Made by a program: the position numbers and the translations under genes
Origin: Candidatus Eiseniibacteriota bacterium
Lineage (GTDB): Bacteria; ARS69
DNA length: 42,967 bases
Assembly: GCA_052390515.1 (NCBI GenBank)
Contig: JBQTGV010000121.1
Span: 1 to 42,967 of the forward strand
Direction of reading: 5' to 3'
Shown here: piece after piece, positions 16,514-42,297 of the stretch
How positions within the stretch are numbered: the first letter of the stretch is position 1
Layout: every line of letters starts with the position of its first letter
Notes under the pieces: model-generated
Database searches by the model: none
Told to the model about the DNA's origin: nothing
What the model saw: the letters and a program-made list of their open reading frames with translations, nothing else

Positions 16514-16578
16514 CGGCGGCGCCCGCGAATGAGTAGAATGTCCTTCGGCCGCCCTTGGTTTCACGGTCGAGGAAGCGC

Positions 16579-17796: not shown

Positions 17797-17824
17797 GCCG
17801 GCTTCCGCCAAAGGAGAGTAGATC

Positions 17825-19404: not shown

Positions 19405-19951
19405 CCGCCGCCCAGATCCCGCAGGTCACGGCCAGCATCGGGTAGAAGTGTCCGCGAACGGCCGCGGCCACCGTGGCGAGCGCGGGACGCAGGCTCCCCG
19501 GAACGGCGAAGGGACGGAACTGCGGCTCATCGGCAAGCTGGTCCAGCAGCGCCAGCGCGGTGATCGCCAACGCCGCGATGTGGACGAGCACGATGCCGGC
19601 GGCGAGGCCCACGAGGCGGCGCCGCGCCGGCATCCGCGTGCCGGCCACGAGCGACACGAGCAGCGCGGACGGAAGGTAGGTGCCCGACAGGCTTCCCGAC
19701 TCGCCCACCGCCTCGACGTCCGGCGCCCGCTCGGACGTGATCACCAGCTCGGTGTCGACATACTTCGTCGGGTGCGGGTGCGGCGCGAAGCGCACGCGGA
19801 CGCCGGGACCGAACCGCCCGAGCACGGCCTCGGATGCGAAGCGGTAGCCGTCGCCCCACGTTGCCGCGATCGGCGTCCACAGGAGCAGGCATCCCGCGTA
19901 CAGCGGGAGCGCCACGATCAGGAAGCGGCCGATCCGTCCGAAGGGACTCAC
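19337..19951 (-). CDS. Multi-pass membrane protein resembling exosortase-associated membrane proteins
   Basis: GTG start overlaps the kinase stop (GTGA); RFLIVALPLYAGCLLLW, YLPSALLVSLVAGT, RRLVGLAAGIVLVH, FYPMLAVTCGIW; 3' end overlaps xrtH by 68 nt. Confidence 0.6.
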   Translation of the reverse strand: MSPFGRIGRFLIVALPLYAGCLLLWTPIAATWGDGYRFASEAVLGRFGPGVRVRFAPHPHPTKYVDTELVITSERAPDVEAVGESGSLSGTYLPSALLVSLVAGTRMPARRRLVGLAAGIVLVHIAALAITALALLDQLADEPQFRPFAVPGSLRPALATVAAAVRGHFYPMLAVTCGIWAAVTFGSPPSARPTPARAARRRAR

Positions 19952-22221
19952 TCCGCCAGTTGGCCGCGCCACGATGCCGCGCGCGCCGGATCGCCCCGGG
20001 ACTCGTACAGCTTGATCAGGAAGCTCACCGCTCGAACCGTTCGCTCCTGCGTCGGCCCGTACGCCTCGACCAGCAGCGGATGCGCTTCGAGCAGGGCACG
20101 CTCCGCAGCATCGTGCCGGCCGAGTCCTCGTAGGCATTCGCCCTGCCATGCGAGAGCGTTGCCCAGCTGGCCCTTGTAGTCGGGAAGCGTGGCCCGAGTC
20201 ACCGTGACCACGTCTTCTATCATCGGCTCCGCCTCGGCGAAGCGCCCCTGCTCGATCCACAGCGCGGCCAGGTTGCTCTTGCTGGTGAGCACGTTCGGGT
20301 GCGTCTCGCCGAGCTTGCGCCTCCGCACCTCGAGGACTCGCACGTAGAGCGACTCCGCCGCGGCCACGTCGCCCTGCTTCTTCTGCGCGACCGCGAGATT
20401 GCTCATGCGCAGCAGCACGTCGGGATGCTCGGGGCCGAGCGTACGGGAGTCGACGGCCAGCACGCGCTGCAGCATCTTCACCGCCTCCTCGTAGCGGCGT
20501 TGATCCACGTACATCGTCGCCAGGTTGTTCATCGCCTTGCGGATCTCCGGGTGCTCTTCACCCAGGAGCGGAAGGCCCTCGTCGAGCACCACCTTGGCCA
20601 GCGACTCCGCGGCCGCGACCTTCCCCTGACCGAGGTAGGCACCGCTCAAGGTGGTCATGGCCGGCACGACCTGCTCCGCGTTGTCGCCGTTGATGTCGGG
20701 CGAGGAGGCCAGGGCCTCGGCCAGGATCGCCTCGGCTTTGTCGAAGCGCCCCTGCGCGCGATACAGTTCGCCGAGCGTCGCCATGGCGTCGAGCAGGCCC
20801 GGATCGCCGGCGGAGAGCCGGGCGGCGCGCGCGGCGAGCGCCTCCTCCACCAGGGACTCCGCGGGCGCATACTCGCCGAGCCTGCGGTACGTGTTGCCGA
20901 TGGTGAGGCGGAGCCGCGCCTGGATCAGCGGCTGATCCTGGAAGCCGTCCCCGATGGTCTTCGCCGCCCCGTCGAGGACCTCGCGGACGGTCACGTCGCG
21001 ACCCAGCTCCCCGGGGCTCACCGACGTCAGCATGTTCTCCAGGAATCCCGTGACCGCGTCGGACTCGTCCCGCGCGGCCTGAACGCGAGCGCGCTGCCTG
21101 TTGGACTCGATCAGCGCCGCGGTAACGGTGACCAGCACCGCCGCCACCACGCCGAGCACGAGCTTGTTGCGTTTGGCGAACTTCCGGAATCGATACGCGG
21201 CGCTGGGCGGCCCGGCGATGACCGGCTCGTCCTTGAGGTAGCGCCGGATGTCCATGGCGAAGCCGTTGGCCGTCTCGTAGCGGCGCGTACGGTCCTTCTC
21301 CATGGCCTTGAGCACGATCCAATCGAGCTCGCCCTTGAGCCGGCGCGTCAGCGTGCGGATGTCGCCTTCGGGACGGCTCGCCGCCTCCTTCGCCACGGCG
21401 CTCCTCGTGCCGGCCATGGCGCTCGGCCGCGCCGGCTCCTCCTCGCGGAGGACGCGGCGGAGCTCGACGTATCCCATCTTCGCCAGCGCCTCCGGGTCGA
21501 ACGGCAGTATGCCGGTGAGCAGCTCGTAGAGCACCACCCCGAGCGAATACACGTCGGCGCGCGTGTCGATATCGAGCGCGCCCATCTCCGCCTGCTCGGG
21601 GCTCATGTACGCCGGCGTGCCGATGAGCTGGCCCATCTGCGTGTACACGGTGCGCTCGGAGAGGCTCCCCGTCGTCGCCTTGGCGATGCCGAAGTCGATG
21701 ACCTTCGCCCGGGGAGTCCCGTCGGCGAGCGTCACCAGGATGTTCGAGGGCTTCAGGTCCCGGTGGATGATGCCTTTCTGGTGCGCGTGCTGCACGGCCT
21801 GGCACACGGTGATGAAGAGCTCCAGGCGTGCCCGGATGGAGAGCGAATGCTTCTCGCAGTACTCGGTGATGGGCACTCCCTGCACGAGGTCCATGACGAA
21901 GAACGGGCGCCCGCGGTCCGTCTCGCCGGCGTCGAGCACCTTGGCGATGCTGGGGTGATCCATCATGGCGAGCGCCTGCCGCTCGGCCTCGAAGCGGGCC
22001 AGCACCGCCTTCGTGTCCATGCCGGCCTTCAGTACCTTGAGCGCCACGCGCCGCTTGACCGGCTCGGTCTGCTGGGCGGCGTAGATCTCGCCGAAGCCGC
22101 CCTCGCCGATCTTCTCGAGGATCCGGTACGGGCCGATCTGCTGTGGTGAACCGGAGCCGGCGGCGGGTCCGACCTCGATGGAGGCGGAGCGAAGGTCGCC
22201 GGGGTCGTCGCGCTCGTTCAT
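19948..22221 (-). CDS. Hanks-type Ser/Thr kinase with TM helix and extracytoplasmic TPR array
   Basis: GEGGFG, VALK, HRDLKPSN, DFG, GTPAYMSPE; TM LVLGVVAAVLVTVTAALI; LGEEHP/LGPEHP/LGETHP TPR repeats. Confidence 0.93.
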   Translation of the reverse strand: MNERDDPGDLRSASIEVGPAAGSGSPQQIGPYRILEKIGEGGFGEIYAAQQTEPVKRRVALKVLKAGMDTKAVLARFEAERQALAMMDHPSIAKVLDAGETDRGRPFFVMDLVQGVPITEYCEKHSLSIRARLELFITVCQAVQHAHQKGIIHRDLKPSNILVTLADGTPRAKVIDFGIAKATTGSLSERTVYTQMGQLIGTPAYMSPEQAEMGALDIDTRADVYSLGVVLYELLTGILPFDPEALAKMGYVELRRVLREEEPARPSAMAGTRSAVAKEAASRPEGDIRTLTRRLKGELDWIVLKAMEKDRTRRYETANGFAMDIRRYLKDEPVIAGPPSAAYRFRKFAKRNKLVLGVVAAVLVTVTAALIESNRQRARVQAARDESDAVTGFLENMLTSVSPGELGRDVTVREVLDGAAKTIGDGFQDQPLIQARLRLTIGNTYRRLGEYAPAESLVEEALAARAARLSAGDPGLLDAMATLGELYRAQGRFDKAEAILAEALASSPDINGDNAEQVVPAMTTLSGAYLGQGKVAAAESLAKVVLDEGLPLLGEEHPEIRKAMNNLATMYVDQRRYEEAVKMLQRVLAVDSRTLGPEHPDVLLRMSNLAVAQKKQGDVAAAESLYVRVLEVRRRKLGETHPNVLTSKSNLAALWIEQGRFAEAEPMIEDVVTVTRATLPDYKGQLGNALAWQGECLRGLGRHDAAERALLEAHPLLVEAYGPTQERTVRAVSFLIKLYESRGDPARAASWRGQLAE

Positions 22222-22296
22222 GCAGGCGAGAGTAGCGAGGGGCTGCCTTCGTGCGCCAGCGTTTCTCGAAGCGTGCTCCTGGGTTAGAATCCGGCG

Positions 22297-22671
22297 ATGA
22301 ACAGCGAACGCGACGCCGCGGCACGGGCGAAGGACCGACTCCACTGGCCGGTGCGAGTCCATCGCCTGGGCGAGGAGCCTTCGGAGAGCCTGCTCGAGAG
22401 CACGACAGCCGAGGAACGGCTCGCGATGATGTGGCCCCTCGCCATGGAAGCGTGGAGCCTCGCCGGCCGCCTCGAACCGGCCTTGCCTCGCTCGAAGCTG
22501 CCCGTGCTCACCGCCGTCGAGTTCGAGGACGCCTGGACGAAGCGTGCGGTGCACCGCGTCGGGCAGATGGTTGTGCAGTTTCTGGGCCGCGAGTCCCTGA
22601 TTCAGAGCAAGCGCGCCGTGGATCGGTCCAAGGATCGAGTGGACCTGGATCTCCTGGAGGGCCGCGCGTAG
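22297..22671 (+). pseudogene. Probable in-frame deletion fusion of a small partner protein and the C-terminus of a nucleotidyltransferase
   Basis: N-half WPVRVHRLGEEP...TTAEERLAMMWPL...AW; C-half VEFEDAW...VQFLGRESLIQSKRAVDRSKDRVDLDLL resembles an NTase tail, but no catalytic G...DxD region is present. Confidence 0.55.
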
Positions 22672-22697
22672 CCGACCCGAGCAAGGAAGGAGTCGGT

Positions 22698-25547
22698 GTG
22701 AACGAGGAGCGCTGGCGGCGCCTGCGCGAGCTGTTCGCCCGGGTCCAGGAGATGCCCGAGGCGGAGCGGGCCGCGTTCGTGGACCGCGAGGCGGCCGGTG
22801 ACGCGGAGATCCGCGAGAGGCTCGAAGTACTGCTCGCCGCGGGGGCGGGCGCAGGTCCTTTCCTCTCCTCTCGCCGCGCGGACGAGCTCGGGTCCACCGT
22901 CGGCCCGTACCGGCTGCTCGAGAAGCTCGGCGAAGGCGGCTTCGGCGTCGTCTATCTCGCCGAGCAGCTTCGCCCGATCCAGAGGCGCGTGGCCCTCAAG
23001 CTGATCAAGCCGGGCATGGACACGCGGCAGGTCATCGCGCGCTTCGAGGCGGAGCGGCAGGCTCTCGCACGCATGGATCACCCGGGCATCGCCCAGGTCT
23101 TCGAGGCGGGGGAGACGGACCGGGGACATCCGTACTTCGTGATGGAGTACGTGCCGGGAGTTCCGATCACCGCGTTCTGCGACGGAGAGCGGCTGCGGAT
23201 CCGGCGGAGGCTCGAGCTGTTCCTCTCCGTGTGCGACGCCGTGCAGCACGCGCATCAGCGCGGCGTGATCCACCGCGATCTCAAGCCGTCCAACGTGCTC
23301 GTCGCGCGCCGGGACGGAACGGCCGGCGCGAAGGTCATCGACTTCGGCATCCTCAAGGCGACGACCGGTGCGGAGGACGAGGCCACCGCCATGACCCAGC
23401 AGGGACTGATCCTCGGGACCCTCGGTTACATGAGCCCGGAGCAGATCGGCGCCGTCGAGGCTGTCGTCGACGTCCGTTCGGACATCTACTCGCTGGGCGT
23501 GCTCCTGTACGAGATGCTCGCCGGGGTGCTGCCGTTCGACCGGGCGCGCCTGCGCCGCGCGTCCCGGACCGAGGCGGCTCGCGTGATTCGCGAGGAGGAT
23601 CCTCCGCTCCTGAGCGCGCGGGTCGCAGCAACGGAGTCGGCGGAGCAGGTCGCCGGGGCGCGTGCCGTCGATCGCCGCACGTTGCTCCGCGAGCTACGCG
23701 GCGAGCTCGAATGGATCACGCAGCGCGCGCTGGAGCGGGATCCGGAGCGGCGCTACGCGTCCGCTTCCGAGCTGGCCGCCGACGTGCGCCGCCACCAGGC
23801 GAACGAGCCCGTGGCGGCGGGTCCCCCGAGCACGTTCTACGTCGTGCGGAAGTTCGCCCGGAGGCACCGCGCCGGCGTCCTGGCCGCCGCGCTCGTCCTC
23901 GGGGCGATCGTGGCCGGAGGGATCTCGACCGGCATCGCCCTGAGCCGCGCGGTTCGCGCGGAGCGCACGGCGCACCGCGAGGCGGAGTCGGCTCGTCGTG
24001 TGGCCGATTTCCTGGCCGAGCTGTTCCGCACGGCGAGCCCCAGCCGCTCCCGGGGTGAGACGGTCACCGCCCGCACGCTGCTGGACCAGGGTTCCCGCCG
24101 AATCCGTGCGTCGCTGCACGAGGATCCACACGTGCGCGCGCGTCTGCTCGGCGCGCTCGGGCAGGCGCATCTGAGCCTCGGGCTGGTCGACGAGGGGCTG
24201 GCTCTCTCGCGCGAGGCGCTCGCCACGAGCGAGTCCGCGCAGCCGCCGGAGCGGATGGAGACGGCCGAGCGGCTCATCGACCTCGCCGCCGGGCTGCGCC
24301 TGGCCGGACAGCCGGCGGAGATCGAAGCCCTGCTCGAGCGGGCCGTCCTGGCGGCGCGGACGTCCGGAGGGGAGGCTTCGCCCCTGCTCGCCCGCTGCCT
24401 CTGGGTGAAGGGAGCGTGGCTCGTGGACCGCGGCGACGAGGCAGCGGCGGACTCGCTCGTCACCGAGGGAATCCGGCTGTGCGAAGGGAGCACCGACCCG
24501 GACGTGAACGTGTTCCTCCGGCTCCACCGGCTGAAGGCGACGATCGCGTTCCGCCGCTACGACCTCGAGACCGCGGAGCGCCATTACCTGCGCGCGCTCG
24601 AGCTCTCCGGGACGGAGGGCGCGGATCCGCCGGACGCGATCCACCGGCATCTCGCCTCGCTGTACAGTGCCCTGGAGGATCGCGCCAAGGCGGTGCACCA
24701 TGCGGAGGAGGCGGTGCGCCTCGCGCGGCAGGTCTATCCGCCGGAGCACCCCTTCCTGGCCGACGCCCTGAGCGCCCACGCCGATGCGCTGGCGAGCCGG
24801 GGGGAGCACGAGCAGGCGGCGGCGGCGCGCGAGGAAGCGATCGCGATCCTGCGGGCGGCCGGCCCGCAGCAGATGCTCGCCGCGGAGCTGAGCCGGGCGG
24901 CCGTCACCTACCTCCAGTCCGGCGATCCCGAGCGGGCGATGCGGCGCAGCGAGGAGGCCTGGGCCGCGTACCACGAACTCTACGGCGCGGAGAACGTCCG
25001 CACGGCGCAGGAGGCGACGAACCTGGCGCGCTGGTACGCGGACGGGGGGCAGAAGCAGCGCGCGGACTCGACGTTCCGAGCCGCCTTGCCCGTGCTCGAC
25101 CGGCTCGACCCGCAGGGGTTCTTCACCGCGTACGCGTACATGGGCCACGCCAACGTCGCCCGTGACCTGGGACAGCACGCGCGTGCCGATGATCTCTACC
25201 GGCACGCGGAGGCGAACCTGGATTCGGCGGACGTCGGCGTGCGGCCCTACTTCGCCGAGTGCCGCGTCGACTGCGCCTACCTGCGCTCGCTGCAGGGCCG
25301 GCACGCCGAGGCGGACTCTTTACTTCGGGAAGCCGTCGGGCTCCTGTCGGAGGACGGGCTGGACGGCGACTGCTGGGCCTTTGTCACCTGGGCCGCGGCG
25401 CGCGCGCAAGCCGGGGACGACGACGGGGCGGTCGAGAAGCTCCGCGAGGCGGCACGGTGCGGCGCCACGCCGGGAGACGTCGGCAAGTACCCGGAGCTCG
25501 CGCGGCTCCGCTCGGTCGCGGGCTATCCCTTCGACAGCTCGTCGTAG
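22698..25547 (+). CDS. Hanks-type Ser/Thr kinase with TM helix and long TPR array (ECF-associated type)
   Basis: AAGGAG RBS; ERWRRLRELF N-terminal extension; GEGGFG, VALK, HRDLKPSN, DFG, GTLGYMSPE; TM AGVLAAALVLGAIVAGGI; TPR-like helices. Confidence 0.93.
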   Translation: MNEERWRRLRELFARVQEMPEAERAAFVDREAAGDAEIRERLEVLLAAGAGAGPFLSSRRADELGSTVGPYRLLEKLGEGGFGVVYLAEQLRPIQRRVALKLIKPGMDTRQVIARFEAERQALARMDHPGIAQVFEAGETDRGHPYFVMEYVPGVPITAFCDGERLRIRRRLELFLSVCDAVQHAHQRGVIHRDLKPSNVLVARRDGTAGAKVIDFGILKATTGAEDEATAMTQQGLILGTLGYMSPEQIGAVEAVVDVRSDIYSLGVLLYEMLAGVLPFDRARLRRASRTEAARVIREEDPPLLSARVAATESAEQVAGARAVDRRTLLRELRGELEWITQRALERDPERRYASASELAADVRRHQANEPVAAGPPSTFYVVRKFARRHRAGVLAAALVLGAIVAGGISTGIALSRAVRAERTAHREAESARRVADFLAELFRTASPSRSRGETVTARTLLDQGSRRIRASLHEDPHVRARLLGALGQAHLSLGLVDEGLALSREALATSESAQPPERMETAERLIDLAAGLRLAGQPAEIEALLERAVLAARTSGGEASPLLARCLWVKGAWLVDRGDEAAADSLVTEGIRLCEGSTDPDVNVFLRLHRLKATIAFRRYDLETAERHYLRALELSGTEGADPPDAIHRHLASLYSALEDRAKAVHHAEEAVRLARQVYPPEHPFLADALSAHADALASRGEHEQAAAAREEAIAILRAAGPQQMLAAELSRAAVTYLQSGDPERAMRRSEEAWAAYHELYGAENVRTAQEATNLARWYADGGQKQRADSTFRAALPVLDRLDPQGFFTAYAYMGHANVARDLGQHARADDLYRHAEANLDSADVGVRPYFAECRVDCAYLRSLQGRHAEADSLLREAVGLLSEDGLDGDCWAFVTWAAARAQAGDDDGAVEKLREAARCGATPGDVGKYPELARLRSVAGYPFDSSS

Positions 25548-26098
25548 AGCCAGGCGCGGGCGAAGGCCCAGTCGCGGAGGATGGTGCGCTCGGAGGTCTC
25601 CAGCGTCTCCGCGACCTCCTCCACGCTCAGGCCTCCGTAGAAGCGCAGCCGCACGACCTGTGCGGCGCGGGCGTCCTGGCGGCCCAGCGTCTCGATCGCG
25701 TCGTCCAGCGCGAGGATCGTCTCCGGATCCCCGGTGTCGGCGAGGACCGCGGCATCCTCGAGCTCCAGCGTGACCTTCGCCGCGGGCTTTCCTTCCGAGT
25801 CTCCGCCCCGCTTGATCCGACCCCGTGCGCGTGCGTGCTCGACCAGGATCCGCCGCATGGCCAGCGCCGCGGCGGCGAAGAACTGCCCGCGGCTCCGCCA
25901 CTGGCCTCCGTCGTCGGGGCGCATGCGCAGGAATGCCTCGTGCACCAGCTCGGTGGACTGCAGCGTGTGACCGGTTCGCTCGTCCAGCATGCGGGCGTGC
26001 GCGATCGCCTTCAGCTCGTCGTAGACCTGGGCGAAGAAGGCGTCCGAGGCCGCGCGTCCCGCTGCCTCGCCGCCCGCCCCTGACTGGTCCTCGCTCAT
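25523..26098 (-). CDS. ECF sigma factor, kinase-associated ECF43-like type
   Basis: VYDELKAIAH...HTLQSTELVHEAFLRM, FFAAAALAMRRILVEHAR...KRGG, VVRLRFYGGLSVEEVAE..ETSERTILRDWAFARAWL. Confidence 0.92.
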   Translation of the reverse strand: MSEDQSGAGGEAAGRAASDAFFAQVYDELKAIAHARMLDERTGHTLQSTELVHEAFLRMRPDDGGQWRSRGQFFAAAALAMRRILVEHARARGRIKRGGDSEGKPAAKVTLELEDAAVLADTGDPETILALDDAIETLGRQDARAAQVVRLRFYGGLSVEEVAETLETSERTILRDWAFARAWLYDELSKG

Positions 26099-26262
26099 GG
26101 CCCGGATGGTAGCCGCCCCGGACGGCGGCCTCAACCGGCCCAGCGCGGCCGATCCAGTGTCACCCTGGAGCCGGCTTCGTCGCCCGTAGCGGCAGCCGGC
26201 CGGGACCCGAGAGGCCGGAGGCGGGCCCGGCCCCGCACCCTCGAACCGAAGGAGAAGGAGTC

Positions 26263-27592: not shown

Positions 27593-28992
27593 GCGGTTCG
27601 AGAGTCATGTTCGGACAGGGCCCACGCGAATGGCCAGAGGAGGAATCGAGATGAAGCTTCGCGAATCGTCCGGTCTGCGCGTCGTGCCGATACTCGCCGC
27701 TCTCGTGGCCGGGGTGGCGGAGCATGCATCCGCCCAGTACGCCCTGAGTTGGCAGACGATCGACAGCGGTGGCGTCATGCAATCTACGGGCGGGACCTAC
27801 ACGCTCGGCGGCACGATCGGGCAGGCGGATGCCGGAGCCCTGTCCGGTGACGTGTACATGCTGGCCGGCGGGTTCTGGACCGGGGGCGGCTCGACCGTCG
27901 TCGGCGTGTCGGAGGGCGATGCAGAGGCGGCGGCGGATCGTCCATCCGCGTTTCGGATCCACGCCCCGGCGCCGAATCCGGTCGTCCGGGAAACCACGGT
28001 CGCGTTCGAAATTCCCGAGACACGGCGCGTCAGCGCGCGCGTCTTCGACGTCGCCGGGCGGCTGACGCGGACGCTCGTCGACGGGACCCTCCCCGCGGGG
28101 CAGCACGTGCGCGTGTGGGACGCCACGAACGAGAGCGGTCGGCGCGTGTCGGCCGGCATCTACTTCGTGGTGCTTGACGCCGGCGCGGAGCGCGCCCGGC
28201 AGAGGGTCGCCGTCGTCCGCTAGAGCTCCATTTCGAAGGGCGACGGCACGATCTCGTGTCACCCGCGACGGCCCGGCGGTGGGCCACCCCGATCGGAGGC
28301 AGACGACCATGAAAGCACCGATGATGGCAGGTTTCTCGACCCTCCTCGGGATGCTGGCGGCGGACCCTGCGGCCTCCGCTCCCCTGGGCACGGCGTTCAC
28401 CTACCAGGGTCGGCTCGACCAGAACGGCGCGCCGCTCGACGGGACGGCGCACCTTCGCTTCCGCTTGTGGGACGCGGCGAGCGGTGGAGCGCAGGTCGGC
28501 GTGAGCCAGCTCGTCCCCAGCGTACTCCTTGCGGACGGGCTCTTCACCGTCGCGCTGAACGGCGCTGGCGAGTTCGGCCCCAACGCGTGGAACGGAGACG
28601 CGCGCTGGCTCGAGGTCGAGGTGTGCACCGATCCGGCCTGCGGCAGCTCGGCGGTTCTCTCTCCCCGCCAACCGGTTACCGCTGCGCCGTACGCGCGACA
28701 TGCTGCGGGGCCGTGGACGATCACGGGCACGACACTCTCGTACAGTAGCGGGAATGTCGGGATCGGCACGACGGCGCCCACCACGACGCTGTCGTTGGGT
28801 AGCTCGAATGCGAACAGCAAGCTACTGGTTTGGGACGGCGGTCCGGGCACCGGACTGGGATTCGGTGTAGGTCCGGCTCAGTTCCGGATCCACCTCGACC
28901 TGCCGACGAATCGCTTCTCGTTCCTGAACGCTCCTTCCGGCAGTGAGATCTTCACCATCACGGGGGCCGGCAACGTGGGCGCCGGCACGAGC
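27074..28992 (+). repeat. Near-identical 168-bp direct repeat: 27074-27241 and 28825-28992
   Basis: Manual alignment shows one mismatch (27149 T vs 28900 C); offset 1751 bp; flanking codons differ at many synonymous sites. Confidence 0.9.
27651..28223 (+). CDS. Small secreted protein with a Gly-rich N-domain and C-terminal FlgD-type Ig domain
   Basis: GAGGAGG RBS; signal ending ASA; YALSWQTIDSGG..STGGTYTLGGTIGQADAG..GGFW; APNP...FDVAGRLTRTL...WDA...AGIYFV. Confidence 0.8.
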   Translation: MKLRESSGLRVVPILAALVAGVAEHASAQYALSWQTIDSGGVMQSTGGTYTLGGTIGQADAGALSGDVYMLAGGFWTGGGSTVVGVSEGDAEAAADRPSAFRIHAPAPNPVVRETTVAFEIPETRRVSARVFDVAGRLTRTLVDGTLPAGQHVRVWDATNESGRRVSAGIYFVVLDAGAERARQRVAVVR

Positions 28993-36528: not shown

Positions 36529-39117
36529 GTGGCTCCTTTCGTGACGCTCGCCGCGGGAATCGCCGTGGTCCTCTTCGCCGGCCCGGCCGCTCCGCTCGCC
36601 GCCGGCCCGTGCACGCCGCAGTTCGTCCGGGAGCTGGATCCCTTCCCGCTCTACGACGGGCAGGGGCCGGTCGCGGGGGCCTGGAACGGTGGCCTGCACA
36701 ACGCCCGCCCTCAGCTCGTGGACATCGACGCCGACGGCGACCTCGACCTCTTCGTCCAGGAGGAGAACGGGCAGCTCCGCCTCTATCGGAACGCCGGGAC
36801 TCCGGCGGCTGCGAGCTGGGTGCTGGAGACCGACGACTTCGGAGGCGTGCACGAGTACTACTTCGCCCGCTTCGTCGACGTGGACTCCGACGGCGACTAC
36901 GACGTGTTGGCCGAGGCCGATCCCTACATCAAGGACATCGGCGGGGTGCTGGTGCAGTTCACCGTGGCGGCCCTGTGGACGAACGTCGGCACGCCTCAGT
37001 CCGCGCAGTTCCAGAATCTCTCTCCGCGTCCGGACGGCTACTTCACGGACGACACCGGCGAGCCCATCCCCTTCACCACGACCACGCCGGAGTTCGTGGA
37101 TCTGGAGGGGGACGGGGACCAGGATCTCCTCCTCGGCGAGGTGTCGGGCAACGTCATCCTCTACCGTAACGTCGGCGGGCCGGGGAATCCGGTCTTCCAT
37201 TTCGAGACCGACACCTACCAGGACATGCGGATCGTTGCGGGTACGTGCACGTCGCTGCGCGGGCCGCAGCCGCCGGACCTTCGCCACGGGTTCATGCTGT
37301 TCTCCTTCTACGACATCAATGCCGACTCGCGGCCCGACCTGTTCGTCGGCGACGAGTTCAACTTCAACTCCTACTTCTGGCTGAACGTCGGGGGTGCCGG
37401 CGCGAGCCCGGACTTCTCCTGCCAGACCGAGACTTACTATCCGGACCCGAACCAGCCGCCGCAGGGCTTCGGACCGCGCCTCCTCTCGGCGTTCGGGGAC
37501 CTCGACGCGGACGGCGACGCAGACGCGGTGGCCGGCTCGGGCTTCTCCAGCACGCTGGGCCTCCAGTTCTTCCGCAACATCGGGACGTCCCAGTTCCCCT
37601 TCCACGTTCTCGAATCGACGAACTGGCTTCCCGAGTTCGATTGGGGCTGGAACAGCGCGCCCGCCTTCGCCGACCTGGATCGGGACGGGGACCGCGACAT
37701 GTTCCTCGGCTCCCCCTCGCGGCAGCTCGCCTCCCGGTGGGAGAACATCGGAACGGCGGCCGCGCCGCAGCTCGCCGTGGTCGATTCCGTCTGGCTCGCG
37801 ATTCCCAACACGGATTGGGTGGCGGCGGACTTCGCCGACATCGACGCCGACGGCGACGAGGACTACATGGTGGGAGGCACGTTCGGCGAGATCCGCTGGT
37901 TCCGGAACGACGGCGACGGGCCGCTGCCCAGCGACTTCGTGGAGGTCCTGGGCGATCCGGACTTCGGGCTGCCGCCGGACCGGACGTTCCGCATCACGAT
38001 CGATCAGCAGTCCGTCCCGCGGTTCGTCGACACCGACGCCGATGGGGACCTCGACATCGTCGTCGGGTACTTCAACGGCGTCTCGCTGCGGGAGGCGACG
38101 CTGCTGCACTTCCGGAACGACGGCACACCCACGGCGCACGACTTCGTGCTGGCGTCGGATGACTACCGCGGACTCGGGGAGCTGGGGCAGGGTACCGCGC
38201 CGACCTTCGGAGATCTCGACGGAGACGGCGACCTCGACCTCGTGGTCGGGCGGGACGACGGGCTGCTGTCGCTGCTGCGCAACGTGGGGACACGGAAGCA
38301 CCCGGCCTACTTCCTCGAACAGGCGAACGTGCTCGACGTGGGCGCGCGCTCGATCCCGTTCCTCGTCGATCAGGACGCGGACGGAGACCTGGATCTCGCC
38401 GTGGGAGAGAGCGGCGGAGGGCTCAACTTCCTGCGCAACGTCTCTCCGGCCCCGGCCAATCCCACTCCGTTCGCTCTGCAGGAGCCGGTGCAGGACGCGG
38501 ACATCGACGGGCGGCGTTTCGTCCCGTTCCGCTGGGAGCAGTCCTTCGCGCCGGGAGCCGGTCCGGAGGCAAGCTACGAGCTGCGGCTGACCTCGGATCC
38601 CGACCTACCCCCCTCGGAGTGGACCGTCATTCCCGTGACCGCCAACCACACCAGGGTGCGGCTGTACTCCGTCGGGTACGCGCTCGCGCCCGAAGTGTGG
38701 TGGACGGTGGAGGCGAAGAGCGGATGCTCCAACGCGCCGATGCCGGAGTGGCGCCGCCTCGTGCACACCACCGTGGACCTCGCCCACCAGGATCTACCGG
38801 ACGGCAGCGAGCCCAAGTCGCTCCATGCCACGGAGGAGTTCTCGCTCGCGGTGACGAGCGTGTTCCCTTCGCCGTTCTCCGACGAGGTCCGCGTGACCTA
38901 CACCGTGCCCGCCAGCGGACGCGTGCGCATCACCGTGCACGACGCGGCCGGACGAGCGGTCGCTGTGCTGCGCGACGCCGACCGCGCGCCGGGCGAGCAC
39001 ACGGAGACGTGGGGCGGGCGTGACCACGATGGACACGCCGTCGCGCCCGGGATCTACGTGGTGCGCGTGGAACAGGGCGGACACGTCGCGACCGGACGGG
39101 TGGCGCATCTCCGGTGA
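36529..39117 (+). CDS. Secreted FG-GAP/VCBS repeat protein with a FlgD-type C-terminal domain
   Basis: About ten D.D.DGD.DL Ca-binding repeats with Y/FRN turns; PSPF...HDAAGRAVAVL...WGGRD...PGIYVVR tail. Confidence 0.87.
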   Translation: MAPFVTLAAGIAVVLFAGPAAPLAAGPCTPQFVRELDPFPLYDGQGPVAGAWNGGLHNARPQLVDIDADGDLDLFVQEENGQLRLYRNAGTPAAASWVLETDDFGGVHEYYFARFVDVDSDGDYDVLAEADPYIKDIGGVLVQFTVAALWTNVGTPQSAQFQNLSPRPDGYFTDDTGEPIPFTTTTPEFVDLEGDGDQDLLLGEVSGNVILYRNVGGPGNPVFHFETDTYQDMRIVAGTCTSLRGPQPPDLRHGFMLFSFYDINADSRPDLFVGDEFNFNSYFWLNVGGAGASPDFSCQTETYYPDPNQPPQGFGPRLLSAFGDLDADGDADAVAGSGFSSTLGLQFFRNIGTSQFPFHVLESTNWLPEFDWGWNSAPAFADLDRDGDRDMFLGSPSRQLASRWENIGTAAAPQLAVVDSVWLAIPNTDWVAADFADIDADGDEDYMVGGTFGEIRWFRNDGDGPLPSDFVEVLGDPDFGLPPDRTFRITIDQQSVPRFVDTDADGDLDIVVGYFNGVSLREATLLHFRNDGTPTAHDFVLASDDYRGLGELGQGTAPTFGDLDGDGDLDLVVGRDDGLLSLLRNVGTRKHPAYFLEQANVLDVGARSIPFLVDQDADGDLDLAVGESGGGLNFLRNVSPAPANPTPFALQEPVQDADIDGRRFVPFRWEQSFAPGAGPEASYELRLTSDPDLPPSEWTVIPVTANHTRVRLYSVGYALAPEVWWTVEAKSGCSNAPMPEWRRLVHTTVDLAHQDLPDGSEPKSLHATEEFSLAVTSVFPSPFSDEVRVTYTVPASGRVRITVHDAAGRAVAVLRDADRAPGEHTETWGGRDHDGHAVAPGIYVVRVEQGGHVATGRVAHLR

Positions 39118-39938
39118 CCGCGGAGCGGTTCGGCGGCTACGAGATCCTGGAGCGATCGGACATCGGCGGCGGCGGCTTCGACGCGCTCGCTCGGGGCGCG
39201 GACGGGCGCGACGTGCGCCTGTGGGTGGGGTGCTCGGGGAGCGGTGCACCGGATCCCGGGAGGCCCACCCCCGACCGCATCCGCGAGACGCTCGCCGGCG
39301 TCTATCAGGCGGGCCTGCCCCGGGTGCTCGGCGCGGAGATCGTTCAGGGACGCGCCGTGCTCGTCGTCCAGCCGTACCGCGGCGAAACGCTCGCGGAGCG
39401 GCTCCGATCCGCGCCGCTGGAGCCGCTCGAGGCGATCGACCGCGTCCGCGGCGTGGCGGCGGCGCTGGTGAAGGCGCACCGGGCCGGCGTGACCCACGGC
39501 TCGATCACCGCCGGCGAGATCCTCCTGGCCGACGACGGCCGCACCCTGCTCCTGCATCTCGGCCTCTCCCCGTTCGTGGGCGACACACGCTCCGGGCTCC
39601 CGACGCCGCCGACCGAAGCCGGGGACGTAGTCGCCCTGGCCGGTGTGCTGAACCGCTGCCTCACGGGGTCCGAGACACGGCCTCACCCCACCGAGCAGAC
39701 GCTGCCCGCGCACCTGCCGCAGGGGCTCCGGCGCCTTCTCGCGCGGGCGCTGCACGCCGATCCGGCTCTCCGCATGCGGCGCGCCGAGGAGCTCGCCGGC
39801 GACCTCGCCGTGATCCGCGCTTCCTGGGGTTCGACGAGCCCGCCGCGCCGCCGCCGGGTACCGGAGGCGGCAGGCCTGGCCGCCGCCGCGGTGGTCGCGG
39901 CCGTGCTGGTCCTGGCCCTCGTCGGGCGCTCCTGCTGA
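39114..39938 (+). CDS. Pseudokinase (degenerate Ser/Thr kinase fold) with a C-terminal TM helix
   Basis: FGGYEILE, GETLAERL...L..AH.AGVTH, DVVALAGVL, ALHADPALR; catalytic motifs replaced; GTGA overlap with the upstream gene. Confidence 0.75.
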   Translation: MTAERFGGYEILERSDIGGGGFDALARGADGRDVRLWVGCSGSGAPDPGRPTPDRIRETLAGVYQAGLPRVLGAEIVQGRAVLVVQPYRGETLAERLRSAPLEPLEAIDRVRGVAAALVKAHRAGVTHGSITAGEILLADDGRTLLLHLGLSPFVGDTRSGLPTPPTEAGDVVALAGVLNRCLTGSETRPHPTEQTLPAHLPQGLRRLLARALHADPALRMRRAEELAGDLAVIRASWGSTSPPRRRRVPEAAGLAAAAVVAAVLVLALVGRSC

Positions 39939-39950
39939 GGGATTTCCGGG

Positions 39951-39980
39951 TTGACGCCCCCTCCGGGGGGGTCTCATGAT
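39951..39980 (+). promoter_or_regulatory. Putative sigma70 promoter of the histone gene
   Basis: TTGACG (39951-39956), 18-nt spacer, CATGAT (39975-39980). Confidence 0.5.
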
Positions 39981-40045
39981 CCGCCGCGAGAAGGCCGGAA
40001 GCGGCTTTCAGGCGTTCAGGGACCCGCTCTCCAGGAGGATCGGAC

Positions 40046-40222
40046 GTGTCGGAGATTATCGTGGTGCAGTCGAAGATCCGGGACATGATCAAGGGCAAGG
40101 GGTGCTCCACGAGCGCGGACGCCATCGACGCCCTCTCGGCCGAGGTGACCCGGATCATCAACCGCGCCGTGGAACGGACGAAGTCCAACGGGCGAAAGAC
40201 GGTCAAGGGATCGGATATCTAG
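40046..40222 (+). CDS. Bacterial histone-fold protein, 58 aa, Bd0055-like singlet (not in the ORF track)
   Basis: AGGAGG (40033-40038) then GTG; MSEIIVVQSKIRDMIKGKGCSTSADAIDALSAEVTRIINRAVERTKSNGRKTVKGSDI*; contains the RKTVxxxD histone L2 motif. Confidence 0.88.
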   Translation: MSEIIVVQSKIRDMIKGKGCSTSADAIDALSAEVTRIINRAVERTKSNGRKTVKGSDI

Positions 40223-40265
40223 CACCCCGCGCAGGGGACGCACCCGGCGCGCCGCGCCGGCTCGA

Positions 40266-40305
40266 CGGCCGGGCTCCTCCGCAGGGGCCCGGCCGATTCG
40301 TTTTT
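40266..40305 (+). terminator. Intrinsic terminator downstream of the histone gene
   Basis: 13-bp stem CGGCCGGGCTCCT / AGGGGCCCGGCCG (one G-U), loop CCGC, followed by ATTCGTTTTT. Confidence 0.75.
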
Positions 40306-40320
40306 CGCGGTTTCGCGAGG

Positions 40321-41403
40321 TCAGGCGGCCGCGCCCCGCGGGCCTCTCCGCTGCGCTCCGTCCACCTCGGTGCGAAGCTGCCCACAGGCTGCGGCGATGT
40401 CCGGTCCCATGCTCCAGCGGACCGTCACGACCGGGGCCACGGGCCACAGCCGGCGGGCAAAGGCGTCCACGCGTTCGCGGTCCGGACGCTCCAGCTCGGG
40501 CGAAGCGCCGGGGTTGTACGGGATCACGTTGATCTTGAACGGCCCGCCGCGCACCAGCGACCCCAGGCGGTCGGCGTCGGTGTCGGTGTCGTTCACACCC
40601 TTCATCAACACGTACTCGAGGGTGACCCGGTTACCGGTCGCTTCGGCGTATCCGCGGGCCGCCGCCATGAGCTCCGGGAGGGGCGTCTTCGCCGCGCGGG
40701 GCATCAGACGCTCCCGCAGCGACTGGGTCGGCGCGTTGAGAGAGACGGCCAGACGCACGCCGAGGCCCGACTGCTGGAGCCTCTTGATCCCGGGGACCAC
40801 GCCGGCCGTGGACACGGTGATCCGGGCGGGACCCAGGTTGAAGCCGAGCGGATCCATCAGGATGCGGCAGGCGTCGGTGACCGCGGGGACGTTGTGCAGC
40901 GGCTCGCCCATGCCCATGAACACGATGTTGGTGCGCGTGCGACGGTCGCGGATGCGCCTCCACAGAGGCACGACCTGCCCGGCGATCTCGTGGGCGGCGA
41001 GATTGCGGAAGAACCCCATGCGCCCCGTCTGGCAGAAGACGCAGTCCAGCGTGCAGCCGACCTGGGAAGAGATGCACAGCGTGACCCGCCGTTCGGTGGG
41101 CATGAGCACGGCTTCGACCGCGCCTCCGTCGGCCAAGCGGAAGAGGTACTTGCTCGACTCGTCGACGGCGCTGTCCCGGCGAGCCGCCACGGGGAGCCCT
41201 CCGGCGACGAAGTCCCTGGCGAGGTCCCGGCGAAGCTCCTTGCCGAGGTCGGTCATCTCCTCGATGTCCTCGACGCCCTTGTCCCACAGCCACCGGGCGA
41301 TCTGGCGGAAGCGGTACTCGGGCAGACCTCGGCCCAGCACGACGGAGCGAAGCTCCTCCAGGGAGAGGGCGCGGAGGGCCGTTTTCTCGGGCGAAAGCGA
41401 CAC
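40321..41403 (-). CDS. rlmN: Radical SAM dual-specificity RNA methyltransferase RlmN (start approximate: GTG 41403 or 41412)
   Basis: TLCISSQVGCTLDCVFC, NIVFMGMGEPLHN, RITVSTAG, LAVSLNA, TLEYVL..VND, INVIPYN, DIAAACGQL. Confidence 0.95.
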   Translation of the reverse strand: MSLSPEKTALRALSLEELRSVVLGRGLPEYRFRQIARWLWDKGVEDIEEMTDLGKELRRDLARDFVAGGLPVAARRDSAVDESSKYLFRLADGGAVEAVLMPTERRVTLCISSQVGCTLDCVFCQTGRMGFFRNLAAHEIAGQVVPLWRRIRDRRTRTNIVFMGMGEPLHNVPAVTDACRILMDPLGFNLGPARITVSTAGVVPGIKRLQQSGLGVRLAVSLNAPTQSLRERLMPRAAKTPLPELMAAARGYAEATGNRVTLEYVLMKGVNDTDTDADRLGSLVRGGPFKINVIPYNPGASPELERPDRERVDAFARRLWPVAPVVTVRWSMGPDIAAACGQLRTEVDGAQRRGPRGAAA

Positions 41404-41514
41404 GGAGACCACTCGGCGGGGCGGTTGCGTCCCGGGCGGGGCGAACTTATCCTGCAACCGCGGACGACCCCGGAGCGTAACGAATCCCGGAGTCATCGGC
41501 AAGGAGGCCTTCCC

Positions 41515-42297
41515 GTGGCCCGACGGCGCCGTTTCGGGTGGTTCGCGGGGGCGATCGGCGGCCTCGCCGTAGCCGGGACCACGCCGGACGCTCTTGCCGA
41601 GTCGCGTGCGGCTCCCGGGTCGGATGCCCGTGCCGCCGCCATCGCGAAGCTGCTCGAGTCGGTCGGGTCCTTCGCGGTCTCCGGGGCGGTCAAGACCGAG
41701 GACGGCCTGCTCCTGCCCGAGTCCATCGCCATCGAGATCAAGAGCGAGATCTGCGTCGAGAGCCGCGAGCCCGGCGCCCGGTTCTGGTCGCTGGACTTCG
41801 ACACCTGCTTCGCGTTCGTCGCGCGGGACTCCCTGGACGCGGTCGGCGAGTACTCGGTGTCGGTGCCCTGCCTGGACGCCGACGCGACGTACGAGTCGCG
41901 TCATCCGTTCGGGGATCTTCGCCTCATCCAGCGCGGGCCGGTTTCGTTCCTGGCGGTTTCGGACGCCGGCTGGAACCACCACGAGACGTTCACTTCGTCC
42001 CGCACCCAGCGCCGCGATCTCCTGCTGACCCTGGAGCCCGAGGTCTTCTGGGTGGTGAAGGAGGGAGGCGATTTGCGGGAGCGGCCGCTCGCCGCCGCCA
42101 CGGCGATCCGACGCATGGACTTCGGAACGGGCGTGCCGGTCGTGCGTTTCCACGAGGGCTGGGCCGAGGTGGTGGTGGACGATCGCATCGCCTGGATGGA
42201 GATGCGCTTCCTGGGGACGGAGAAGCAGCTCGAGGAGGCCCGACCGTTCCGGGGCAAGCCCGCGGTGGAGCCTCTGCCGGTCCCGGAGTCCCCGTGA
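41515..42297 (+). CDS. Exported hypothetical protein with a C-terminal SH3-like domain
   Basis: AAGGAGG RBS; basic plus hydrophobic signal ending ALA; DLRERP...GTGVPVV..HEGWAEV...AWMEMRFL resembles SH3b. Confidence 0.65.
   Translation: MARRRRFGWFAGAIGGLAVAGTTPDALAESRAAPGSDARAAAIAKLLESVGSFAVSGAVKTEDGLLLPESIAIEIKSEICVESREPGARFWSLDFDTCFAFVARDSLDAVGEYSVSVPCLDADATYESRHPFGDLRLIQRGPVSFLAVSDAGWNHHETFTSSRTQRRDLLLTLEPEVFWVVKEGGDLRERPLAAATAIRRMDFGTGVPVVRFHEGWAEVVVDDRIAWMEMRFLGTEKQLEEARPFRGKPAVEPLPVPESP

What the first reader, a model, noticed from the sequence alone, without database searches (positions are those of the whole stretch)
39951..40305. Unannotated bacterial histone gene with its own promoter, RBS and terminator
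Seen: a 58-aa ORF missing from the ORF track, with AGGAGG 7 nt before GTG, a TTGACG/CATGAT promoter-like pair and a strong hairpin-U terminator. The sequence pattern (E..VV.SK....IK.KG..TSA..ID.LS...NGRKTV..D) closely parallels the Bdellovibrio histone Bd0055 as I recall it. Known: such singlet histones are abundant DNA-binding nucleoid proteins in a few bacteria. Inference: a highly expressed monocistronic histone, implying histone-based chromatin in this lineage; it stops just after the RKTVxxxD motif, suggesting a dimer-type histone.
Basis: partly seen in the sequence, partly recalled or inferred. Interest (0 to 1): 0.85.

Follow-up and report, generated by a model that had tools for sequence, protein, structure and literature searches.

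The report
Small bacterial histone gene, tetramer type
This is a real, self-contained gene for a 58-residue bacterial histone that is kept in nearly every genome of a small uncultured phylum.

Summary
Window 40046-40222 (+) is a 58-aa GTG-start ORF with AGGAGG 7 nt upstream, a TTGACG-18-CATGAT promoter-like pair and a 13-bp hairpin plus T-run.

All of these elements, and the synteny (conserved 274-aa ORF, then histone, then convergent rlmN), recur in all 10 relatives' loci found. The gene is in 11 of the 12 species genomes searched as its phylum; the one without is 67% complete. dN/dS is about 0.19.

It is a histone. phmmer matches HBb/Bd0055 (E 1e-9) and HLp (2e-9). The AlphaFold2 model (pLDDT 94.3) overlays HLp, HBb and HTkC at TM 0.85-0.92.

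The "dimer-type" inference is not supported. R44, N48 and a C-terminus one residue after the clamp Asp are invariant, and these are the tetramer determinants of face-to-face (FtF) histones HLp and HTkC. HBb has Ser and Asp there plus a tail. A four-copy model places dimer-dimer contacts at 43-44/47-48 against 54/56-57.

"Histone-based chromatin" is only partly supported: each genome also carries HU/IHF genes (three in this one), and expression could not be tested.

Verdict: a new member of a known kind, in a lineage that the main texts read here do not name. Moderate interest.

The parts
39951..39956 (+). -35-like hexamer TTGACG
   Evidence: GTTGAC is invariant in 11 of 11 aligned loci. The spacer is 17-18 nt in 11 of 11.
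39975..39980 (+). -10-like hexamer CATGAT
   Evidence: [CG]AT[GC]AT is found in 11 of 11 loci, with A, T, A, T invariant. Genome-wide, TTGACN-17/18-NATNAT occurs 17 times against 3.5 expected from base composition, and 11 of the 17 precede an SD plus ORF.
39990..40009 (+). 8-bp hairpin (4-nt loop) about 10 nt after the -10, presumably at or near the 5' end of the mRNA. This is inferred; the transcription start is not mapped.
   Evidence: a local hairpin at the matching place in 11 of 11 loci with different stem sequences; z from -0.5 to -3.8, and at most -2 in 6 of 11. RNAalifold found no consensus on the MAFFT alignment.
40033..40038 (+). Shine-Dalgarno AGGAGG, 7 nt before the start codon
   Evidence: GGAG-type sites sit at the same place in 11 of 11 loci.
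40046..40222 (+). Histone gene, 58 codons plus TAG. Predicted alpha1 is residues 8-17, alpha2 is 24-47, and alpha3 is a single turn at 55-57.
   Evidence: dN/dS median 0.19 over 55 pairs. Single copy in the genome.
40266..40305 (+). Intrinsic-terminator-like hairpin (40266-40295) with T-rich tail (40296-40305)
   Evidence: Hairpins of -21 to -37 kcal/mol with T-rich tails follow the stop codon in 11 of 11 loci, with unrelated stem sequences.
39114..39938 (+). Conserved upstream neighbour: a 274-aa ORF of unknown family with a hydrophobic C-terminus. It is context, not part of the histone unit.
   Evidence: tblastn finds it upstream of the histone in 10 of 10 relatives' loci. No Pfam family at E 0.001; kinase models score only E 0.35.
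40321..41517 (-). Convergent downstream neighbour rlmN (radical-SAM rRNA methyltransferase). Its true start was not determined. Context only.
   Evidence: Pfam Radical_SAM 4e-15 and RlmN_N 4e-11. Adjacent in 10 of 10 relatives' loci. Among 80 named loci it is adjacent only in the 9 of this lineage.

Best explanation
The region is a monocistronic gene for a minimal (58 aa, 6.2 kDa, pI 9.7) alpha3-truncated histone of the face-to-face (FtF) kind.

Shown:
- The ORF is under purifying selection.
- It is kept, with its promoter-like, SD and terminator-like elements and its neighbours, throughout a small uncultured phylum.
- It is predicted with high confidence to adopt the truncated histone fold of HLp, HBb and HTkC.

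Inferred mechanism:
- Two chains form the usual histone-fold dimer.
- Two dimers close into a ring-shaped tetramer. R44 pairs with the C-terminal carboxylate (I58) of the opposing dimer, and N48 makes hydrogen bonds across the same interface.
- DNA, about 60 bp by analogy with HLp, wraps non-specifically round the ring. It would contact S9-K10, R12 and K16 (alpha1), T22 (loop 1) and K51-T52 (loop 2).
- The protein acts as a nucleoid-associated protein alongside the lineage's HU/IHF proteins, not in place of them.
For: Real gene:
- dN/dS median 0.19, maximum 0.38, over 55 pairs.
- 46 homologues share 75% mean column identity.
- Present in 11 of 12 genomes of the phylum; the one without is 67% complete.
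- Synteny and regulatory elements are kept in all 10 relatives' loci found.

Histone fold:
- phmmer: HBb 1.1e-9, HLp 2e-9, HTkC 2.3e-5.
- Family profile: 9e-18, 4e-15 and 1.5e-10 for the same three, and it also reaches archaeal HMfA and Asgard histones.
- AlphaFold2 pLDDT 94.3.
- Foldseek TM 0.89-0.92 to HLp and HBb, 0.85-0.87 to HTkC, and about 0.6 to nucleosomal histones.

FtF type:
- R44, N48, R50, T52 and D57 are invariant in 46 of 46 sequences.
- By the alignments, R44 corresponds to HLp R49 and HTkC R45, and N48 to HLp N53.
- HLp R49/S52/N53 bond with F63/T61/R55 of the other dimer (PMC12701072 section 7).
- HTkC R45 binds the opposing C-terminal carboxylate, and the R45A mutant is a dimer (bioRxiv 10.64898/2025.12.06.692711 section 5).
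- Published bacterial dimer histones lack this Arg and Asn (PMC11390915 section 8). HBb itself has Ser and Asp there, and its Asp49 makes an intramolecular salt bridge instead (PMC11317129).
- Of 91 singlet relatives among the best 150 representatives, 80 have Arg plus Asn. Of those 80, 73 end exactly one residue after the Asp; of the other 11, only 1 does.
- Four-copy model (ESMFold2): score 0.86, best of 3 controls 0.00. The mark was reached by 20 of 30 solved homo-pairs and 1 of 23 single chains. Partner pLDDT is at least 89 and the runs agree in 100% of contacts. Besides the dimer interface, the scored copy confidently touches residues 43-44, 47-48, 54 and 56-57 of a chain of the other dimer.

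Relatives and DNA contacts:
- The nearest relatives outside the lineage are Bacteriovoracaceae, Bradymonadales and DPANN or Asgard archaea. These are taxa where FtF histones are reported (PMC11390915 section 7).
- The nine HLp DNA-contact positions (PMC12701072 section 9) map here to Q8, S9, K10, R12, K16, T22, A24, K51 and T52. Of these, S9, K10, K16, T22 and T52 match HLp and are invariant in the family, and Q8 is invariant but differs from HLp's Ala. R12 (Arg or Lys in the rows shown) and K51 are basic residues where HLp has Lys and Thr.
Against: - Overall sequence similarity is slightly higher to dimeric HBb than to HLp (67.2 against 58.7 bits with the family profile; 41.0 against 40.2 bits with the single sequence).
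- The tree cannot place the family. It lies outside both the HBb-like and the HLp-like starred clades, in an unresolved bush.
- HTkC, a proven tetramer, has Glu at the Asn position, so the Asn is not essential.
- Four HBb-like relatives keep the Arg, so the Arg alone is not sufficient.
- The four-copy score mostly reflects the dimer interface. The calibration was for two copies. The pass may be memory of solved 9QT0 and 9F2C.
- The alignment given to the model held only Arg+Asn sequences.
- No expression, oligomeric-state or DNA-binding data exist for this protein.
- Three HU/IHF matches in the genome mean the histone need not be the main nucleoid protein.
Confidence: 0.66

Rival explanations
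1. It is an HBb-type 'bacterial dimer' histone. It would stay a dimer and bend or coat DNA without wrapping.
For: HBb is the best PDB match by sequence. The monomer model superposes on HBb as well as on HLp (TM 0.90-0.92). The N-terminal segment and the S9-K10 motif are shared.
Against: It carries the Arg and Asn that published bacterial dimers lack (PMC11390915 section 8). It ends one residue after the clamp Asp, whereas HBb and 4 of the 5 HBb-like relatives in the starred clade have tails in the alignment; the fifth could not be judged there. It lacks HBb's one-residue insertion in loop 1. Five of 6 HBb-like relatives form a separate starred clade, 95/93. The four-copy model makes confident dimer-dimer contacts at the FtF positions.
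Confidence: 0.22
2. It has the histone fold but is not a general chromatin protein. It would be a low-abundance, specialised DNA- or protein-binding factor, for example tied to its conserved neighbours.
For: Expression is untested. The HU/IHF family is present in 12 of 12 genomes. The strict synteny with the 274-aa ORF and rlmN could in principle reflect a functional link. Authors of the field caution that not all prokaryotic histone-fold proteins are global organisers (PMC11390915 discussion).
Against: The gene has its own conserved promoter-like site and terminator, so it is not co-transcribed with its neighbours. rlmN is convergent. Five of the nine HLp DNA-contact positions carry HLp's residue and are invariant. 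Net charge is positive, pI 9.7. Codon adaptation is in the ribosomal-protein range, 96th percentile of 2,810 ORFs, although only 80.6% of random 57-codon windows score lower. Characterised relatives are among the most abundant proteins or most highly expressed genes in their hosts (PMC10627809 section 12; bioRxiv 10.64898/2025.12.06.692711 abstract).
Confidence: 0.1
3. It is a chance ORF in 70% G+C DNA and not a gene.
For: It is short (58 aa). High-G+C DNA is full of long open frames on both strands.
Against: There are 68 close homologues and 369 representatives at E up to 0.001. dN/dS is 0.19. The fold model has pLDDT 94.3. PDB matches reach E 1e-9.
Confidence: 0.01

Closest known systems
HLp, the tetrameric face-to-face histone of Leptospira perolatii (PDB 9QT0-9QT2; PMC12701072)
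   Same: It has the truncated histone fold with no extra domain (TM 0.89-0.92, rmsd 1.0 A, 41% identity). The tetramer residues Arg, Asn and clamp Arg are all present (R44, N48, R50). The C-terminus is one residue after the clamp Asp. Five of the nine DNA-contact positions carry the same residue (S9, K10, K16, T22, T52), and two more are basic here (R12, K51). It is a single copy per genome and persists across its lineage.
   Different: It has no N-terminal tail (HLp has about 7 disordered residues). It is not in the HLp-like clade. Its lineage keeps HU/IHF genes, whereas the paper says Leptospira lacks HU. Its neighbours are rlmN and an unknown ORF, not SMC/MAP/DUF350. Nothing has been measured for it.
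HBb / Bd0055, the dimeric histone of Bdellovibrio bacteriovorus (PDB 8FVX, 8CMP, 9EZZ; PMC10627809, PMC11317129)
   Same: It is the best sequence match (E 1.1e-9; 9e-18 with the profile; 45-46% identity). It shares the truncated fold, the RKTV loop and RD clamp, and the S9-K10 motif. It also coexists with HU in its host.
   Different: HBb has Ser and Asp where this protein has R44 and N48, a one-residue insertion in loop 1 and a C-terminal tail. HBb-like relatives form a separate clade.
HTkC, the archaeal face-to-face histone of Thermococcus kodakarensis (PDB 9F2C)
   Same: It has the toroid-forming Arg (HTkC R45, equivalent to R44 here) and a C-terminal carboxylate one residue after the Asp. 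It is about the same size (59 aa against 58). TM is 0.85-0.87.
   Different: Identity is only 29-30%. It has Glu at the N48 position and a 2-residue longer loop 1. It is archaeal and coexists with nucleosomal histones.
58-aa histones of Bacteriovoracaceae, Bradymonadales and 'Deltaproteobacteria' MAGs (loci L021-L034 and L042)
   Same: These are the closest relatives outside the lineage (57-66% identity). They have the same length, the same Arg/Asn/C-terminus and the same Cys in loop 1.
   Different: They form a separate, starred clade (100/98). They have no rlmN or 274-aa ORF next to them. They are uncharacterised.

Membership tests
Histone-fold superfamily | Helix-loop-long helix-loop-helix fold that superposes on solved histones | tested here: met
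   The AlphaFold2 model has pLDDT 94.3, with helices at 8-17, 24-47 and a turn at 55-57. All of the first 50 Foldseek hits listed are histones or histone-fold proteins, and the top nine (HLp, HBb, HTkC) have TM 0.85-0.92.
Histone-fold superfamily | RxTxxxxD motif (loop 2 Arg-Thr and the Arg-Asp clamp) | tested here: met
   R50, T52 and D57 are invariant in 46 of 46 sequences. They align with the clamp residues of HBb and HLp.
Alpha3-truncated histones (Schwab et al. 2024) | Alpha3 of only 3-4 residues, and alpha2 shorter than in nucleosomal histones by 4-5 residues | tested here: met
   Alpha3 is residues 55-57 in the model. The profile alignment to an Asgard nucleosomal histone needs a 4-residue gap inside alpha2.
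Face-to-face (FtF) histones | Conserved interface Arg (logo R48, HLp R49, HTkC R45) and Asn (logo N52, HLp N53) | tested here: met
   R44 and N48 are invariant in 46 of 46 sequences. The positions were mapped through the alignments.
Face-to-face (FtF) histones | C-terminal carboxylate one residue after the clamp Asp, available to the opposing Arg | tested here: met
   The stop codon follows D57-I58. The same ending is seen in all 11 loci and in 73 of 80 Arg+Asn singlets.
Face-to-face (FtF) histones | Confidently predicted closed tetramer (the feature by which the category was defined) | tested here: inconclusive
   The four-copy ESMFold2 model scores 0.86 (best control 0.00) with confident contacts at 43-44/47-48 against 54/56-57 between dimers. 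Only one chain's contacts are reported, the score is dominated by the dimer, memory of solved tetramers is possible, and no dimeric control was run.
Face-to-face (FtF) histones | Tetramer in solution and DNA wrapping | not testable with these tools
   Needs SEC-MALS, a crystal structure, MNase or tethered-particle assays.
Bacterial dimer histones (HBb type) | Clusters by sequence with HBb and lacks the FtF Arg and Asn | tested here: not met
   It has R44 and N48. It lies outside the starred HBb-like clade. HBb is nonetheless the top PDB match by score.
Pfam PF00808 (CBFD_NFYB_HMF) and NCBIfam NF043032 (archaea_histone) | Score at or above the curated cut-off | tested here: not met
   PF00808 scores 17.9 bits against a cut-off of 21.4. 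NF043032 scores 23.8 bits against 50. An HLp-like relative has no Pfam hit at all at E 0.01, so these models under-detect the subfamily.
DUF1931 (PF09123) pseudodimeric histones | Match to PF09123, doublet architecture | tested here: not met
   There is no PF09123 match at E up to 10. The protein is a singlet of 58 aa.

The most novel reading that the evidence does not exclude
An entire uncultured bacterial phylum inherited a minimal 58-residue ring-forming (FtF) histone from its common ancestor. It has kept it ever since as a fixed, strongly expressed nucleoid protein working beside HU. This would be the first case of a histone that is universal at phylum level in bacteria. Its nearest kin include DPANN and Asgard archaeal histones, which would point to an old inter-domain transfer.
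Probability: 0.3. Interest if true: 0.6.

Novelty: new member of a known kind. Interest (0 to 1): 0.42.

Why it matters
Bacterial histones were recognised as chromatin proteins only from 2023. One survey found them in under 2% of genomes, and they have been studied in Bdellovibrio and Leptospira (PMC10627809).

This case adds a lineage in which the gene is present in every adequately complete genome. It sits at a fixed chromosomal place, with a conserved promoter, 5' hairpin and terminator, which argues for long vertical inheritance and a core role.

The protein is also among the smallest of the tetramer-type histones seen here and has no tails. It would therefore be a clean subject for testing the Arg-to-carboxylate rule of ring formation.

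It changes no concept: the family, the fold and both DNA-binding modes are already described. JGI already labels 19 of the 68 close homologues listed 'histone H3/H4'.

Tried and rejected
- **Codon adaptation as a proxy.** CAI is 0.775, the 96th percentile of 2,810 heuristic ORFs of at least 100 aa and within the ribosomal-protein range (0.656-0.788). But only 80.6% of random 57-codon windows score lower, so it is not significant.
- **Consensus 5' UTR structure.** RNAalifold gave no pairs on the MAFFT alignment. Single-sequence folds give a hairpin in 11 of 11 loci, but z is at most -2 in only 6.
- **Rfam** on 39800-40400: no match at E up to 1.
- **Tree** of 56 rows by 58 columns: the backbone is unresolved (24 of 53 inner branches open). 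It cannot say whether the family is sister to archaeal FtF, Bacteriovoracaceae or others.
- **Second histone gene.** PF00808 over the whole genome finds only this gene (17.7 bits) and a 12.9-bit chance-level hit.
- **Kinase idea for the upstream ORF.** Pfam kinase models reach only E 0.35, so it was dropped.
- **Phage origin.** 1 relative (45% identity) in the viral-contig scan, which the tool describes as 2.9 million contigs. The window is ordinary chromosome: Tol-Pal genes, fumarase, aldehyde dehydrogenases.
- **Earlier notes of this scan.** None by place or by sequence.
- **Naming the phylum.** 'Eisenbacteria' plus 'histone' gave 0 papers. Isolate labels of three named relatives gave nothing relevant. 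The lineage is left unnamed; NCBI submitters call the relatives 'bacterium' or Gemmatimonadota.
- **Prior print.** The main texts of PMC10627809 and PMC11390915 hold no 'Gemmatimonad'.
- **A4 as a query.** It was too diverse for the search for related loci, so A1 was used. One of A1's search patterns forces Arg and Asn, so the 80 of 80 Arg+Asn among those loci is not evidence.

Full report
**1. The observation**

- ORF: a GTG-start ORF at 40046-40222 (+) of 58 codons ending in TAG. It is the maximal ORF in that frame.
- Ribosome-binding site: AGGAGG at 40033-40038, 7 nt before the start.
- Promoter-like pair: TTGACG (39951-39956), 18 nt, CATGAT (39975-39980). It is the only promoter-like site in 1.2 kb; shuffles gave a mean of 0.0.
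- Terminator-like hairpin: 13 bp at 40266-40295 followed by ATTCGTTTTT.
- The ORF is 58 aa, below the 60-aa default of the ORF listing. That is the simplest reason for its absence from an ORF track, which I did not see.

**2. It is a real, conserved, self-contained gene**

Distribution:
- The window lies in a 4.27-Mb, 223-contig assembly that is 95% complete. The gene is single-copy there.
- A search of the genome's phylum examined 12 genomes although 120 were asked for. I therefore take the phylum to hold 12 species genomes here, in one family and eight genera.
- 11 of the 12 carry the gene. The one without is 67% complete.
- Among 29 genomes from other families sampled, 4 had a match.

Conservation in the 10 relatives' loci:
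- The gene sits between the same 274-aa ORF and a convergent rlmN in all 10.
- Among 80 named loci from the wider collection, that neighbourhood is seen only in the 9 of this lineage.
- Across the window's own locus plus the 10 relatives (11 loci), upstream DNA has 55% mean column identity. GTTGAC and the A, T, A, T of the -10 are invariant, and the spacer is 17-18 nt in 11 of 11.
- A GGAG-type SD precedes a GTG start (9 of 11) or an ATG start (2 of 11).
- A G+C-rich hairpin with a T-rich tail follows the stop codon in 11 of 11 loci, with unrelated stem sequences.
- The coding frame is under purifying selection: dN/dS median 0.19, maximum 0.38, over 55 pairs.

Promoter type in this organism:
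- Genome-wide, the motif TTGACN-17/18-NATNAT occurs 17 times against 3.5 expected from base composition.
- 11 of the 17 precede an SD plus ORF. So it looks like a working promoter type here.

The 5' hairpin:
- A small hairpin about 10 nt after the -10 recurs in 11 of 11 loci.
- Its z-score is at most -2 in only 6 of them, and RNAalifold found no consensus.
- I record it as a probable 5'-terminal stem-loop, not an established one.

**3. It is a histone**

- phmmer against PDB sequences matches HBb/Bd0055 (E 1.1e-9), HLp of Leptospira perolatii (2e-9) and HTkC of Thermococcus kodakarensis (2.3e-5).
- A profile of 46 homologues raises these to 9e-18, 4e-15 and 1.5e-10. It also reaches Asgard and Methanothermus nucleosomal histones.
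- Pfam PF00808 (17.9 bits, cut-off 21.4) and NCBIfam archaea_histone (23.8 bits, cut-off 50) both fall short. An HLp-like relative has no Pfam hit at all. This explains why the NCBI names shown for such genes are all 'hypothetical protein', while JGI labels 19 of the 68 'histone H3/H4'.
- AlphaFold2 with an 88-row alignment gives pLDDT 94.3: alpha1 at 8-17, alpha2 at 24-47 and a single-turn alpha3 at 55-57.
- Foldseek's nine best PDB hits are HLp, HBb and HTkC (TM 0.85-0.92, rmsd 0.8-1.5 A). Classical histones follow at about TM 0.6.

**4. Dimer type or tetramer type**

What the literature says:
- It splits the alpha3-truncated histones into 'bacterial dimers' (HBb) and 'face-to-face' (FtF) histones that close into a ring-shaped tetramer (PMC11390915, sections 6-8, passages read).
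- FtF histones have a conserved Arg and Asn at the dimer-dimer interface. The Arg binds the C-terminal carboxylate of the opposing dimer.
- Bacterial dimers lack both residues.
- In HLp the network is R49/S52/N53 against F63/T61/R55 (PMC12701072, section 7).
- In HTkC, R45A converts the tetramer to a dimer (bioRxiv 10.64898/2025.12.06.692711, section 5).

How this protein compares, using the alignments:
- These positions correspond to R44, S47, N48, R50, S56 and I58 here.
- R44, N48, R50 and D57 are invariant in 46 of 46 close homologues.
- The protein ends exactly one residue after D57.
- HBb has Ser and Asp at 44 and 48, an extra loop-1 residue and a tail. Its Asp makes an intramolecular salt bridge (PMC11317129).

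Wider relatives:
- Among the 150 best of 369 representatives from an unbiased HMMER scan, 91 are singlets of at most 80 aa.
- 80 of the 91 have Arg plus Asn. Of those 80, 73 end one residue after the Asp.
- Of the other 11, only 1 ends there.

Four-copy model (ESMFold2, own alignment of 88 Arg+Asn rows, HBb-like rows left out):
- Score 0.86; best of 3 controls 0.00.
- The mark was reached by 20 of 30 solved homo-pairs and 1 of 23 single chains.
- Partner pLDDT is at least 89, and the runs agree in 100% of contacts.
- Besides the dimer interface, it reports confident contacts of the scored copy with residues 43-44, 47-48, 54 and 56-57 of a chain of the other dimer.
- These are the homologous places.

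**5. Evidence against the tetramer reading**

- HBb scores a little higher than HLp by sequence.
- The tree is unresolved. It used 56 rows: the window, 8 of 9 own-lineage loci, 35 of 71 other loci picked for taxonomic spread, 6 HBb-like and 6 HLp-like representatives.
- The tree shows only that the family lies outside the HBb-like clade (5 of 6 rows, 95/93) and outside the HLp-like clade (95/93).
- HTkC has Glu at the Asn position.
- Four HBb-like relatives keep the Arg.
- The complex score is dominated by the dimer interface, was calibrated on two copies, may be memory of 9QT0 and 9F2C, and had no dimeric control.
- I put the FtF reading at about two in three.

**6. Role in the cell**

For a DNA-binding role:
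- The protein is basic: 11 Lys+Arg against 7 Asp+Glu, pI 9.7, 6.2 kDa.
- Of the nine HLp residues that touch DNA, five are identical here and invariant in the family (S9, K10, K16, T22, T52). Q8 is invariant but differs from HLp's Ala. R12 and K51 are basic where HLp has Lys and Thr.

For a core function:
- The gene persists across the phylum at a fixed locus.
- The window is ordinary chromosome: Tol-Pal genes, fumarase, aldehyde dehydrogenases.
- Relatives are almost absent from viral contigs, with 1 hit.

Limits on the 'histone-based chromatin' claim:
- HU/IHF-family genes are present in 12 of 12 genomes, with 3 matches here. The situation resembles Bdellovibrio (histone plus HU) and not Leptospira (no HU, per PMC12701072 section 6).
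- Abundance is untested. No RNA run was listed.
- Codon adaptation is in the ribosomal-protein range but not significant for 57 codons.

**7. Relatives elsewhere**

- A pattern scan of one genome per species found 251 relatives, of which the best 80 were kept.
- After the 9 own-lineage loci come Bacteriovoracaceae and other Bdellovibrionota, Bradymonadales and 'Deltaproteobacteria' MAGs at 57-66% identity.
- Then come DPANN and Asgard archaea, Planctomycetota and Myxococcota. By my count of record titles, 32 of the 80 are archaeal.
- This matches the published range of FtF histones (PMC11390915 section 7; PMC12701072 section 6).
- One search pattern forced Arg and Asn, so the residues of these 80 loci are not independent evidence.

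**8. Novelty and verdict**

- The fold, the family and both DNA-binding modes are known.
- What is new is the lineage, its near-universal retention of the gene with conserved regulatory anatomy, and the correction from dimer type to probable tetramer type.
- The main texts I searched do not name this lineage. The supplementary taxon tables were closed and may list it.
- Verdict: new member of a known kind, moderate interest.

Noticed in passing
Proteins P0070-P0148 (not in the window): Of the 150 best representatives, 42 are 105-150 aa long. All 25 that I read have two matched stretches. They are natural tandem doublets of the same truncated histone, and both halves often keep the Arg...Asn-Gly-Arg-Lys-Thr motif and a C-terminus one residue after the Asp. 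Of the 8 tested, 3 reach a Pfam cut-off (PF00808 or DUF1931) and 5 reach none. The main text of PMC11390915 mentions only viral doublets. A dimer of such doublets would mimic the FtF tetramer.
   Followed up: partly
window 39114-39938 (+): A 274-aa ORF with a hydrophobic C-terminus is conserved directly upstream of the histone in all 10 relatives' loci (42-56% identity). It has no Pfam family; protein-kinase models score only E 0.35.
   Followed up: partly
window 39990-40009 (+), and the same place in L002-L011: A 7-8 bp G+C-rich hairpin starts about 10 nt after the -10 element in 11 of 11 loci, with different stem sequences. It may be a 5'-terminal stem-loop that stabilises the mRNA. The statistics are weak and the transcription start is not mapped.
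   Followed up: partly
residue 20 of the protein (window 40103-40105): A Cys in loop 1 is invariant in 46 of 46 close homologues and common in Bacteriovoracaceae and archaeal relatives. HLp has Phe and HBb has an inserted Gln-Met there. The four-copy model puts it in the dimer interface against residues 42, 45, 52 and 53. No redox or metal role was examined.
   Followed up: no
window 16555-18889, 27630-28220 and 36529-39117 (+): Three large secreted-looking proteins (lamin-tail, FG-GAP and unassigned) end in a FlgD_ig-like domain, and a neighbouring lamin-tail protein (17825-18889) had no such match. This may be a shared C-terminal sorting or anchoring domain of the lineage.
   Followed up: no
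window 19951-25547: Two divergent genes encode Ser/Thr protein kinase plus TPR proteins (868 and 1,098 aa by ORF), next to an ECF sigma factor at 25523-26134. The two ORFs as called overlap by about 300 nt, so at least one start is probably over-extended.
   Followed up: no
G000 contig C79:1076-2154 (not in the window): Two of the three HU/IHF-family matches lie about 550 nt apart on the same strand. The same pairing is seen in at least seven other genomes of the phylum.
   Followed up: no
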